DNA from: Escherichia coli
GTDB lineage: Bacteria; Pseudomonadota; Gammaproteobacteria; Enterobacterales; Enterobacteriaceae
DNA length: 16,737 nt
Strand: one strand, 5' to 3'
Assembly (NCBI RefSeq): GCF_003334385.1
Contig: NZ_QOWN01000064.1
Both the position numbers and the translations under genes were made by a program. Below are positions 5,587-7,801 of the stretch, piece by piece. Each line of letters starts with the position of its first letter. Position 1 is the stretch's first letter. The notes under the pieces were generated by a model. The model made no database searches. It worked only from the letters and a program-made list of their open reading frames with translations, and was not told the origin of the DNA.

Positions 5587-5940
5587 TTATCGTCGCCGGT
5601 TAACAGCGGGTGGTTGCCCACGGTTGAGCCAGAGATAACAGCTTCCCCCGTCATCCGGAGAAACACGATCCACCCAGAACATCTCGCCGTTAATGGTCAG
5701 CGTGTCACCACGCCGCACGGCACGCACCGTATCCGTCCGCACAAATAATGACGGGCTGCTTCCTTCAATACGGACCCCGCCACCGGCAAAACCCAGCGAC
5801 TCCGGATCGTCAAAAACCCCCTGAACTTCGCCGCCACGTTGTGCTCCGGAGGTGAACTGCGCACGGATCCCCATCACTTCAACGATCGTACTGTCCACCC
5901 CGGCGAGGGCAGCATCAAAGGCATTCTGAAAATCACGCAT
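5587..5940 (-). CDS. FII: Head-tail connector protein FII
   Basis: 117-aa ORF ending ...FWVDRVSPDDGGSCYLWLNRGQPPAVNRRR, matching remembered lambda gpFII (117 aa). Confidence 0.9.
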   Translation of the reverse strand: MRDFQNAFDAALAGVDSTIVEVMGIRAQFTSGAQRGGEVQGVFDDPESLGFAGGGVRIEGSSPSLFVRTDTVRAVRRGDTLTINGEMFWVDRVSPDDGGSCYLWLNRGQPPAVNRRR

Positions 5941-6316
5941 ATTCAGCCGTTCCGTGCTGTATCATGGCCGTTGCCAGTGATGATGGCACCAGAACACGCA
6001 TACCCCGTAACGCCAGCTCAACGGGACGACCTGTCTCCGGGCAATACCCCATTACTTGCAGGCACTTCCGTACCCGGACGGCTTTAACATCATCCGGAGC
6101 ATCCGTGTTGTTCAACTGCTCACCATCGTCTGTGTGATTTTGATCAGCCCCGCTCTCATCAGAGTGCATAATGCCCTCCGGGGAAACAGCAAGCTCCTCT
6201 TCCCACTCAGACACACGTTGAGCAATATCCGCAGCACTCCCCGACATATCCGCCTCGCGCCCCAGCAGGCCAGCCAGTTGACGAAGACGATTCAGATTTT
6301 CTTCTTTTGTTGCCAT
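5933..6316 (-). CDS. FI: DNA packaging / head assembly protein FI
   Basis: Position between E and FII and an acidic central region are typical of gpFI. Start chosen at ATG 6314-6316 (MATKEENLNRLRQLAGLL...), which has an AGGAGG 6 nt upstream; the track ORF extends to 6364 from a non-ATG start. Sequence similarity to lambda FI is weaker than for neighbours. Confidence 0.75.
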   Translation of the reverse strand: MATKEENLNRLRQLAGLLGREADMSGSAADIAQRVSEWEEELAVSPEGIMHSDESGADQNHTDDGEQLNNTDAPDDVKAVRVRKCLQVMGYCPETGRPVELALRGMRVLVPSSLATAMIQHGTAEYA

Positions 6317-6330
6317 CTCAGCCTCCTGTG

Positions 6331-6360
6331 AAAAAAGACACGGGGGCATTTCGCCCCCGC
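6331..6360 (-). terminator. Intrinsic terminator-like hairpin immediately downstream of major capsid gene E
   Basis: Plus-strand CGGGGGC-atttc-GCCCCCG (stem 6341-6347 / 6353-6359), followed on the minus (transcribed) strand by TCTTTTTTC. Likely a partial terminator/attenuator or mRNA stabiliser. Confidence 0.4.
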
Positions 6361-6367
6361 TCACGGA

Positions 6368-7396
6368 TTATTTCACCTGTACCACCACAAACTCATCCGG
6401 ATCCGGCAGCACCATCAGCGGAGCGGACTGCGTCATGGTGAATTCACGGGCCGGATCGCCCACAGTCAGCCAGTGTTTCGGATAACGGGAAGAGGCCACC
6501 ACACCTTCGGACAACGCCTGCGCATCCTGAATGGCACCATAGCAACGAATGCCCTCTGCTGCCGTATTCCCCAGGACCAGTGTGCCCTCCGGCAGATAAC
6601 GTTTTTCGGTACCGTCCTCTGCCACATAAGACGTTTTCGCCACCACAATGGCCAGATCGCCGTAATACCCCTTGAAGGACACCACCGCCCCCAGGTCTTT
6701 CACTGCCGTTTCGAGTTGTGAATTTGAGCCGCGACGGGTATCCAGTTTTTCGCGGAACAGCTTAAAGCCATTCAGCAGACGCCAGACCGTACCGTCCATA
6801 ATGGCGATATTCACAAGGCCGCTGGCCTGATCGCAGTAGAGGTCAATATCATGCGTCGGATCAAACGTATCACGGTCCTGCTCAGACCATTTTTTACCGT
6901 CAGCCTGCTCAATGTTATTTCCTTCAGAGCGCCCGAAATCCACCTCGACAGTATCAAACTGATCCCCTTCCATGGTGTATTTGCCATACAGCACGGCATT
7001 CACCGCCTGCATTTCTTCCACCTGGACAATGGCGTGCTCTTCCTGTTTGAGGTTATCGGTAATGATACGCAGACGACGGTAGGCCGGGTCATTCAGCTGA
7101 GCCGGATCTTCACCAGGAAGGCGCTCAACCGCCTGCTGGTAATTAAATTCGTGTTTGGGCTTGACGTAGCCCGGACGTAACACGCGGGTTTCACCACCGC
7201 GATGGCGAAGCACTTTTCCTTCAACAACCGGGGAGACATAGGCTGCCACCGGCGTTTTTCCGGTAATTTTGTCCAGCATCACCTCTTCGGTGTGGAAATT
7301 CACCGTACGGCGGAAAAACAGCTCCAGAAACAGCGCACGGAATTTCACTTTTTGTTCGGTATAACCGAGTAACTGGCGGGTCGTAAACAATCCCAT
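6368..7396 (-). CDS. E: Major capsid protein E
   Basis: 342-aa ORF with long collinear matches to remembered lambda gpE (341 aa), e.g. VKPKHE, DPAYRRLRII, QVEEMQAV, YGKYTM, DTRRGSNS, LETAVKDLG, YPKHWLTVGDPAREFTMTQSAPLM. Confidence 0.93.
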   Translation of the reverse strand: MGLFTTRQLLGYTEQKVKFRALFLELFFRRTVNFHTEEVMLDKITGKTPVAAYVSPVVEGKVLRHRGGETRVLRPGYVKPKHEFNYQQAVERLPGEDPAQLNDPAYRRLRIITDNLKQEEHAIVQVEEMQAVNAVLYGKYTMEGDQFDTVEVDFGRSEGNNIEQADGKKWSEQDRDTFDPTHDIDLYCDQASGLVNIAIMDGTVWRLLNGFKLFREKLDTRRGSNSQLETAVKDLGAVVSFKGYYGDLAIVVAKTSYVAEDGTEKRYLPEGTLVLGNTAAEGIRCYGAIQDAQALSEGVVASSRYPKHWLTVGDPAREFTMTQSAPLMVLPDPDEFVVVQVK

Positions 7397-7424
7397 AAAT
7401 CAGTTCCTTTCATTCAGAAATCAG

Positions 7425-7446
7425 TCAGGCCACCATGGTGGCCTGA
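7425..7446. promoter_or_regulatory. Perfect palindrome CAGGCCACCATGGTGGCCTG in the D-E intergenic region
   Basis: 20-bp perfect inverted repeat at 7426-7445 (extendable by one pair), between the D stop (7454) and E start (7396). Could be an RNA hairpin or a protein-binding site. Confidence 0.35.
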
Positions 7447-7453
7447 TAACGTG

Positions 7454-7801
7454 TTACGGCAGAGCCGCGTGACTCAGGGCTGTACCGGCAAAGGCATTTG
7501 CCTTTTTGTGTTCATCCACACTGTCAGGCCAGCGGATTGCCTCCGTCGCAAAGGTCCCCGACTTGTAATAGGTCAGCACCGTCTCTGTGCCTTCAAGCGG
7601 CAGTACCAGTATGCCAGCCGCACTACCGGCTTTCTGTCCATCCCAGACCACCAGTTTCCCGCTGGCTTCATCCAGCATCAGGGGCGTCAGAGCCGGTGTT
7701 GCCTGAGAAATCCCGCTGCTGCCTGTGGCGGTATGAGCCGGATCATTACCGGCAAAAATACGTACTTCCGCACGTTGTTCAGTGATGGTTTTCGTCACCA
7801 T
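7454..7801 (-). CDS. D: Head decoration protein D
   Basis: 115-aa ORF with DPAHTAT, TPLMLD, KLVVWDG, YKSGTF, KKANAFAGTA motifs matching remembered lambda gpD (110 aa). Confidence 0.9.
   Translation of the reverse strand: MVTKTITEQRAEVRIFAGNDPAHTATGSSGISQATPALTPLMLDEASGKLVVWDGQKAGSAAGILVLPLEGTETVLTYYKSGTFATEAIRWPDSVDEHKKANAFAGTALSHAALP

What the first reader, a model, noticed from the sequence alone, without database searches (positions are those of the whole stretch)
6331..6360. Terminator-like hairpin immediately after the major capsid gene
A 7-bp GC stem with a 5-nt loop followed by a T-run on the transcribed strand lies in the 50-nt gap between the E stop and the FI start. Such elements after capsid genes commonly attenuate or stabilise mRNA to over-produce capsid protein relative to downstream genes.
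Basis: partly seen in the sequence, partly recalled or inferred. Interest (0 to 1): 0.3.

Follow-up and report, generated by a model that had tools for sequence, protein, structure and literature searches.

The report
Terminator hairpin after capsid gene E
A short, stable RNA hairpin followed by a run of U sits between the major capsid gene and the next gene of a lambda/phage-21-like prophage; relatives almost always have one there, and it is an ordinary terminator-like signal whose exact job is untested.

Summary
On the minus (coding) strand, RNA 5'-GCGGGGGC GAAAU GCCCCCGU-3' (window 6360..6340; -16.8 kcal/mol) is followed by GUC and six U (6336..6331). It lies in the 51-nt gap between the stop of capsid gene E (6370..6368) and the start of FI (6316). 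It is the top terminator-like site in the window.

Selection is evident. Among 23 distinct close variants the stem changes only by C-to-U, which keeps G.U pairs in this strand's RNA. In 23 of 23 E-family lineages with a gap of 37 nt or more after the capsid gene, an unrelated GC-rich hairpin sits at the same place. U-rich tails are enriched. Phage N15's hairpin is annotated as a putative rho-independent terminator. The D-E gap carries a second such hairpin.

Best reading: a leaky intrinsic terminator inside a Q-antiterminated late operon, whose hairpin also gives a protected RNA 3' end, favouring D/E message over downstream genes. Termination, read-through and stabilisation are inferred, not shown; the literature calls the roles of such intra-operon terminators unknown. 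This is a new member of a known kind, of low interest.

The parts
6340..6360 (-). Core RNA hairpin GCGGGGGC-GAAAU-GCCCCCGU: seven G-C pairs (6359-6353 with 6347-6341), a closing G6360.U6340 wobble and a 5-nt loop (6352..6348).
   Evidence: Sequence. Energy -16.8 kcal/mol. Top terminator-like site in the window. All cells paired in 23 distinct variants, and the only stem changes are C-to-U.
6331..6336 (-). Run of six U. It starts 3 nt after the stem (spacer GUC); the last U is 9 nt from the stem base.
   Evidence: Mostly conserved in variants, with a few interruptions.
6368..7396 (-). Major capsid gene E (342 aa); stop codon TAA at 6370..6368, 7 nt before the hairpin.
   Evidence: ORF. PHROG phrog_2353/phrog_29, major head protein. 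Annotated as E in PhiR12 phages and as gene 7 in phage 21.
5933..6316 (-). Gene FI (DNA packaging chaperone, 127 aa); ATG at 6316..6314.
   Evidence: phrog_92; annotation in relatives.
6322..6327 (-). Shine-Dalgarno AGGAGG of FI, 5 nt before the ATG and 12 nt after the hairpin.
   Evidence: Sequence. Ribosome binding site annotated at the equivalent place in phage 21 record M81255.
6361..6367 (-). 5' arm (UCCGUGA) of a predicted outer helix. It pairs with U6331-C6328 and G6326-A6324, so it would enclose the U-run and cover part of the FI Shine-Dalgarno. Not conserved.
   Evidence: Predicted pair probabilities 0.86-0.99. In the variants, 5 of its 7 pairs contain unpaired cells with no compensation, and it is absent in the Citrobacter relative L219.
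7425..7446 (-). Companion terminator-like hairpin in the D-E gap: UCAGGCCACC-AUGG-UGGCCUGA, then CUGAUUUCUG.
   Evidence: 9 pairs, 6 of them G-C. Gap fold z = -3.18. 11 of 12 intermediate relatives have a hairpin at the same place.

Best explanation
The element is a leaky intrinsic (Rho-independent) terminator inside the late operon of a lambda/phage-21-like prophage, placed directly after the major capsid gene.

Proposed mechanism:
- RNA polymerase that started at the late promoter and carries the Q antiterminator mostly reads through it, so FI, FII and the tail genes are still expressed.
- A minority of transcripts end at the U-run.
- Transcripts that were cut downstream are trimmed back by 3' exonucleases to the GC hairpin.
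- Both routes leave E-coding (and, with the twin hairpin after D, D-coding) RNA with a protected 3' end. These messages therefore accumulate above the messages for downstream, lower-copy proteins.
- The same signal stops any polymerase that lacks Q.

Shown here: the structure, its stability, its position, its conservation, the strand-specific substitution pattern and the enrichment of U tails.

Inferred: termination, read-through by Q-modified polymerase, protection from exonucleases, and any effect on protein ratios.
For: 1. Canonical anatomy: 7-8 bp GC stem, 5-nt loop, -16.8 kcal/mol, six U whose last residue is 9 nt from the stem base, on the sense strand in an intergenic gap.

2. Close variants: among 23 distinct variants from IMG/VR contigs, every stem cell stays paired. 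All five variable stem sites are C-to-U, giving G.U, which pairs only in the minus-strand RNA. If transitions hit G and C alike, the chance that all five fall on C is 21/3003 = 0.007. One variant (L125) lost one G and one C together and keeps a perfect stem. Loop, spacer, U-run and Shine-Dalgarno positions vary freely, including by transversion.

3. Position is conserved but sequence is not: lambda, N15, phi80, Gifsy-1, 12 enterobacterial relatives at 65-93% E identity and 7 distant E-family phages (Aeromonas, Chi, Sphingomonas, Vibrio, Pseudomonas, Rhizobium, Ruegeria) each carry a different GC hairpin right after the capsid stop. In the quantified set (phi80 seen only), that is 23 of 23 lineages with a gap of at least 37 nt, and 20 of 23 beat their own shuffles at p <= 0.05. 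The three phages without a hairpin have no gap.

4. U tails are enriched: 10 of 23 lineages have at least 5 U in the 10 nt after the GC core, against 5.4% expected (binomial P about 1e-7). Three more have U-runs paired to upstream A-runs. This points to a terminator rather than a mere hairpin.

5. N15's equivalent hairpin is annotated 'putative rho-indep. transcription terminator'.

6. The same arrangement is reported after capsid genes elsewhere: phage L/P22 (PMC8022706), SPP1 gene 13 (PMC6316719) and LUZ100/T7 (PMC10134795).

7. The D-E and E-FI gaps are the only gaps over 40 nt among 15 packed late genes, and both hold such hairpins.

8. The closest complete phage has antiterminator Q upstream on the same strand.
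Against: - There is no transcript or half-life data for this element or for lambda's counterpart. The lambda ribosome-profiling/RNA-seq paper and the 1988 Sampson et al. paper were not held in the library.
- The title of Sampson et al. [quoted passage not shown] That leaves less for RNA-level control to explain.
- The U-run is offset from the stem by GUC, which should weaken termination (general knowledge of intrinsic terminators).
- Ten of 23 lineages have a hairpin without a U-rich tail, so termination cannot be the shared function in all of them.
- Q-modified polymerase is expected to bypass intrinsic terminators, so the terminated fraction may be negligible.
- No pair shows a compensatory change on both sides within the homologous set. 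The support comes from wobble-only changes and from non-homologous replacement.
Confidence: 0.55

Rival explanations
1. It is purely a post-transcriptional 3'-end barrier. The hairpin does not terminate Q-modified polymerase to any useful extent. It only blocks 3'-to-5' exonucleases after downstream endonuclease cuts, which lengthens the life of the E (and D) segments of the long late transcript.
For: Ten of 23 lineages have a stable hairpin with no U-rich tail, so the hairpin is the universal feature. The element lies deep in a Q-dependent operon, and Q factors bypass intrinsic terminators. The U-run here is offset by 3 nt.
Against: U-rich tails are strongly enriched (P about 1e-7), which an exonuclease barrier does not need. 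There are no decay data.
Confidence: 0.2
2. It is an insulator that enforces Q dependence. The terminator stops polymerases that did not load Q at the late promoter, such as spurious or read-in transcription in the lysogen. Tail and downstream genes then stay silent unless the lytic programme is on.
For: This possibility is raised explicitly for intra-late-operon terminators in PMC8022706. Several other terminator-like hairpins lie along the same strand of the late region, at 16137..16102, 15088..15056 and 7446..7425.
Against: It does not explain why the hairpins sit specifically after the two highest-copy head genes D and E in nearly every lineage, rather than anywhere in the operon.
Confidence: 0.12
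3. It has a translational role. The structure between the E stop and the FI ribosome binding site keeps the heavy ribosome traffic on E from re-initiating on FI, or masks the FI Shine-Dalgarno through the outer helix. FI translation is then set independently and kept low.
For: The predicted outer helix UCCGUGA/UCAC-A-GGA covers AGGA of the Shine-Dalgarno with pair probabilities of 0.86-0.99. Similar UCC...GGA closures appear in N15 and SS2019XI. The hairpins lie a median of 9 nt from the stop and close to the next ribosome binding site. The title of Sampson et al. attributes late-gene ratios to translation initiation.
Against: The outer helix is broken without compensation in several natural variants and is absent in the Citrobacter relative. 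Distances from hairpin to ATG vary from 6 to 31 nt. The enrichment of U tails is unexplained.
Confidence: 0.08
4. It is a chance hairpin with no function.
For: GC-rich coding sequence in this window folds as well or better in many 36-nt windows.
Against: 23 of 23 lineages carry one at the same place with unrelated sequences, stem changes are pair-preserving only, and U tails are enriched.
Confidence: 0.03

Closest known systems
Phage N15 stem_loop 7053..7073, annotated 'putative rho-indep. transcription terminator', between gene 8 (major capsid) and gene 9 (FI) (NC_001901.1)
   Same: Same position between orthologous genes, same strand, and a GC stem-loop of similar size (GUGGCCC-AUUC-GGGCCAC).
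   Different: No sequence similarity to the window's hairpin. Its tail CUUUCUGG is poorer in U. It is also untested experimentally, as far as the record shows.
Phage lambda E-FI intergenic hairpin (AUGGCCC-UUCG-GGGCCAU, tail UGUUUCUCU)
   Same: Same genes, same gap (41 nt), hairpin 2 nt after the stop and a U-rich tail.
   Different: DNA similarity to the window ends at the 3' end of E. It is weaker (-12.3 kcal/mol) and no feature is annotated in the record I read.
Intra-late-operon terminator at the end of the procapsid gene module of phages L and P22 (PMC8022706)
   Same: A predicted intrinsic terminator inside a single-promoter, antiterminator-driven late operon, right after the capsid assembly genes. 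The authors propose partial termination or blocking of spurious transcription.
   Different: Unrelated capsid gene family and unrelated sequence. The authors state that the roles are not known.
Terminators directly after the major capsid gene in T7-like phages (T7, LUZ100) and in SPP1 (after gene 13)
   Same: A stem-loop terminator immediately downstream of the most highly expressed structural gene (PMC10134795; PMC6316719 Tables 2 and 3).
   Different: T7-like phages use their own RNA polymerase and a local promoter. No Q-type antitermination is involved, and the sequences are unrelated.
Intercistronic stabiliser hairpins of bacterial operons (for example REP elements between malE and malF); cited from my own knowledge, not checked here
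   Same: A stable stem-loop after an abundantly needed upstream cistron protects the upstream mRNA from 3' exonucleases.
   Different: REP elements are a dispersed repeat family of the host chromosome. This hairpin is specific to the E-FI junction of one prophage lineage.

Membership tests
Intrinsic (Rho-independent) terminator | Compact G+C-rich stem (about 5-14 bp) with a short loop (3-8 nt). | tested here: met
   Seven G-C pairs plus one G.U pair, a 5-nt loop, and -16.8 kcal/mol.
Intrinsic (Rho-independent) terminator | U-rich tract immediately 3' of the stem on the transcribed RNA. | tested here: met
   Six consecutive U at 6336..6331. They begin 3 nt after the stem (GUC spacer), so the fit is imperfect; the last U is 9 nt from the stem base. 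Across lineages U tails are enriched, P about 1e-7.
Intrinsic (Rho-independent) terminator | Sense orientation, downstream of a stop codon, in non-coding sequence. | tested here: met
   It is on the minus strand, like all the late genes, starts 7 nt after the E stop, and lies inside the 51-nt gap.
Intrinsic (Rho-independent) terminator | RNA-level pairing maintained in evolution. | tested here: met
   All cells are paired in 23 variants, and the only changes are C-to-U, giving G.U (P = 0.007). Non-homologous hairpins sit at the same site in 23 of 23 lineages. No compensatory change on both sides was seen.
Intrinsic (Rho-independent) terminator | Transcripts actually end at the U tract, in vivo or in vitro. 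| not testable with these tools
   No transcript data were available. The relevant lambda papers were not held.
Any curated Rfam RNA family | Match at or above the family's gathering score. | tested here: not met
   No hit in the whole window at gathering thresholds. The only sub-threshold hit is the ylbH leader at 17.4 bits against 50 required, E = 0.6.
RNase III processing site | Roughly 20 bp or more of near-continuous double-stranded RNA (from my own knowledge). | tested here: not met
   The core stem has 8 pairs. Even with the non-conserved outer helix there are 15 pairs, interrupted by an 8-nt internal loop.
Programmed stop-codon read-through signal (E-FI fusion) | A leaky stop context and a conserved in-frame downstream ORF, with fusion products found in relatives. 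| tested here: not met
   E and FI are in frame here with an open spacer. However, the gap length is not a multiple of 3 in lambda (41), Chi (61), K243 (55) and others. E-FI fusion proteins in the database are singletons. UAAU is an efficient stop context (my own knowledge).

The most novel reading that the evidence does not exclude
The paired hairpins after D and after E may not be working terminators at all in the Q-antiterminated operon. They could instead be a conserved RNA punctuation system that carves the 20-kb-plus late transcript into long-lived D and E message segments. Because the hairpin sits a median of only 9 nt from the stop codon, terminating ribosomes on the heavily translated capsid message could occlude it. 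The signal would then act only on poorly translated or Q-less transcripts. That would make it a general, translation-gated device for setting capsid stoichiometry across the E family.
Probability: 0.15. Interest if true: 0.4.

Novelty: new member of a known kind. Interest (0 to 1): 0.2.

Why it matters
On its own it matters little. Terminator-like hairpins after major capsid genes are a familiar feature of phage genomes, and this one is present at 90% identity or better in 1544 of 5426 complete E. coli genomes.

The modest value lies in the comparison. A hairpin after E was found in every sampled E-family lineage that has room for one. A second hairpin after D was found in 11 of 12 intermediate relatives. 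Sequence turns over freely while position and pairing are kept.

That makes lambda-like late operons a clean system for a question the literature still calls open (PMC8022706): what do intrinsic terminators do inside operons transcribed by terminator-resistant polymerase?

Tried and rejected
1. Generic folding-energy ranking. The hairpin is in the top 0.6% of 36-nt minus-strand windows but not among the 12 best, because GC-rich coding sequence folds well by chance. Raw energy is therefore not the discriminating criterion.

2. The larger structure. The predicted outer helix that would bury the U-run and part of the FI Shine-Dalgarno looked attractive. Natural variants break it without compensation, and the Citrobacter relative lacks it. 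I rejected it as a conserved feature.

3. E-FI read-through or fusion. The shared reading frame, the open spacer and a PHROG profile spanning both proteins raised the idea. The frame is not conserved across lineages and database fusions are singletons, so I rejected it.

4. Known RNA families. Rfam gave nothing.

5. True covariation. No pair changes on both sides within the homologous set, so the support rests on wobble-only changes and on non-homologous replacement.

6. Literature on transcript ends in lambda late RNA. The lambda ribosome-profiling paper, a lambda review and Sampson et al. 1988 were not held.

7. My early impression that U tracts are generally poor in relatives (after) was overturned by the larger sample.

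Full report
**What is in the sequence**

All sizeable ORFs in the window lie on the minus strand. They form a lambda-like late gene row running Nu1, A, W, B, C, D, E, FI, FII, Z, U, V, G/T, H, M. PHROG searches identify 6368..7396 as a major head protein of the lambda E family, 5933..6316 as the DNA packaging chaperone FI, 7454..7801 as the head decoration protein, and further genes as protease/scaffold, terminase, endolysin and spanin.

The closest records are the E. coli phages PhiR12_1 to PhiR12_5 (99-99.4% identity over 1.55 kb). Phage 21 follows at about 90%.

On the minus strand the gap between the E stop (TAA, 6370..6368) and the FI start (ATG, 6316..6314) is 51 nt. It reads UCCGUGA GCGGGGGC GAAAU GCCCCCGU GUC UUUUUU CAC AGGAGG CUGAG.

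**Is it more than chance?**

- The hairpin folds at -14.8 kcal/mol (7 bp) or -16.8 kcal/mol with the closing G.U pair.
- It is the best of 36 terminator-like sites in the window scan.
- No dinucleotide shuffle of the gap (0 of 40) gives a hairpin this stable.
- The 56-nt context has z = -2.98.
- Generic 36-nt folding energy puts it only in the top 0.6% of the strand, because GC-rich coding sequence folds well. The specific combination of features matters, not energy alone.
- Rfam has no family for it.

**Variation among close relatives**

Two scans of viral contigs returned 28 distinct versions of the E-FI spacer. After setting aside the five versions with homopolymer length changes, 23 aligned variants show every stem cell paired. 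Five of the eight pairs vary, and each variation is C-to-U, producing G.U. G.U pairs exist only in the RNA of this strand; on the other strand they would be A-C mismatches.

The stem has 8 G and 7 C. If transitions fell on G and C alike, all five landing on C has probability 21/3003 = 0.007. One variant lost one G from the 5' arm and one C from the 3' arm and keeps a perfect, shorter stem (L125).

Positions outside the stem (loop, spacer, U-run, Shine-Dalgarno) change more freely, including by transversion. There is no compensatory change on both sides of any pair, so this is not classical covariation.

**Same place, different sequence, in every lineage with room for it**

DNA similarity between the window and lambda-type phages stops at the end of E. 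Even so, lambda, N15, phi80 and Gifsy-1 each have their own GC hairpin a few bases after the capsid stop.

Twelve enterobacterial relatives with 65-93% E identity each have yet another hairpin there. They were fetched through the protein database and come from Citrobacter, Salmonella, Klebsiella, Edwardsiella, E. coli and others.

Among ten distant E-family phages, all seven with a gap of 46 nt or more have one: Aeromonas PhAER-5, Chi, Sphingomonas Carli, Vibrio K243, Pseudomonas SS2019XI, Rhizobium PPF1 and Ruegeria DSS3-P1. The three without a hairpin have no gap at all.

Totals:
- 23 of 23 lineages with a gap of at least 37 nt carry a hairpin of -11 to -24 kcal/mol.
- 20 of 23 beat their own shuffles at p <= 0.05.
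- U-rich tails are enriched. Ten of 23 lineages have at least 5 U in the 10 nt after the GC core, against 5.4% expected (P about 1e-7). Three more have U-runs paired with upstream A-runs. Ten have no U-rich tail.

**Context in the operon**

Among the 15 tightly packed late genes, only the D-E gap (57 nt) and the E-FI gap (51 nt) exceed 40 nt. Both contain terminator-like hairpins. Eleven of the 12 intermediate relatives also have a hairpin with a U-rich tail in their D-E gap. D and E encode the two most abundant head proteins (established lambda biology).

In the closest complete phage, PhiR12_1, an antitermination protein Q gene lies about 13.7 kb upstream on the same strand. It is followed by the lysis and head genes. 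The hairpin therefore sits deep inside a Q-dependent late operon.

**What is known**

- N15's record annotates its equivalent hairpin as a putative rho-independent terminator.
- A genome paper on phage L/P22 notes a predicted terminator at the end of the procapsid module inside the single-promoter late operon. [quoted passage not shown]
- SPP1 has a predicted terminator at 8775-8815, right after capsid gene 13, which ends at 8777 (PMC6316719).
- LUZ100, 'similar to T7', has a strong terminator immediately after its capsid gene (PMC10134795).
- Q21 and Q-lambda are described as processive antiterminators that bypass intrinsic terminators (text quoted).
- I could not obtain transcript-level data for lambda late RNA. 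The title of Sampson et al. 1988 (seen) attributes late-gene expression ratios to translation initiation.

**Most likely mechanism**

I read the element as a leaky intrinsic terminator (confidence about 0.55). Q-modified polymerase mostly passes it. A minority of transcripts end in the U-run. Transcripts cut downstream are trimmed back to the hairpin. Both routes leave E-coding RNA (and D-coding RNA, through the twin hairpin) with a protected 3' end, so it accumulates relative to downstream message. Polymerases without Q stop there.

The structure, position, conservation, strand-specific substitution pattern and U-tail enrichment are shown. Every step involving polymerase, nucleases or protein ratios is inferred.

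Rivals, which are not mutually exclusive:
- An exonuclease barrier with no real termination (0.2). It is favoured by the ten lineages without U tails and by Q.
- An insulator against Q-less transcription (0.12).
- A translational role on FI (0.08). It is weakened because the outer helix that would mask the FI Shine-Dalgarno is broken in natural variants.
- Chance (0.03).

**Side issue checked and dropped**

E and FI share a reading frame here, with an open 17-codon spacer, and PHROG phrog_2353 spans both proteins. However, the frame is not conserved across lineages, and E-FI fusions in the protein database are single-member, single-contig entries. Programmed read-through is unlikely.

**Verdict**

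It is a new, unannotated member of a well-known kind, very common in E. coli prophages (1544 of 5426 complete genomes). Interest is low. The one point of wider use is that the regular pair of hairpins after D and after E offers a clean test bed for the still-open question of what terminators do inside antiterminated operons.

Noticed in passing
window 7425-7446 (minus strand): A second terminator-like hairpin lies in the 57-nt D-E gap. It is a perfect palindrome, UCAGGCCACC-AUGG-UGGCCUGA, followed by CUGAUUUCUG. Eleven of 12 intermediate relatives have a GGCC-rich hairpin with a U-rich tail at the same place, so the capsid gene is bracketed by hairpins.
   Followed up: partly
window 5933-6370 (minus strand): E and FI are in the same reading frame, separated by a single TAA and an open 17-codon spacer. 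PHROG phrog_2353 (481 positions) spans E plus FI. Rare singleton E-FI fusion proteins (PF03864 + PF14000: P0005, P0103, P0108, P0114) exist in the large protein database and are probably errors.
   Followed up: partly
window 15056-15088 and 16102-16137 (minus strand): Two further strong hairpins with U-rich tails lie in the lysis-gene part of the late region. One (AAAACCCCG...CGGGGUUUU) is downstream of the endolysin gene. The other has an A-run, a hairpin and a U-run, and so looks bidirectional.
   Followed up: no
window 7153-7397; hit H21, MT713136.1 250152-250396: The 254-kb Aeromonas phage AP1 record holds an unannotated 245-nt stretch, close to its end, that is 96% identical to the 5' end of this E. 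coli prophage capsid gene. It looks like contamination or a chimeric assembly.
   Followed up: no
L005 (phi80, JX871397.1) 713-760: The phi80 record sets the FI start 9 nt after the E stop, so its post-capsid hairpin GUGGCCC-UGUC-GGGCCAC lies inside the annotated coding sequence. The start is probably set too far upstream.
   Followed up: no
L092 (Vibrio phage K243) 337-398: The gap upstream of this phage's capsid gene also holds a canonical terminator, AAAAGAGCC-UUUAU-GGCUCUUUUUU. The capsid gene is thus bracketed by hairpins here too, although this phage is only about 31% identical in E.
   Followed up: no
window 6296-6395: This exact junction (at 90% identity or better) is present in 1544 of 5426 complete E. 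coli genomes, with up to 5 copies per genome and almost always on the chromosome.
   Followed up: yes
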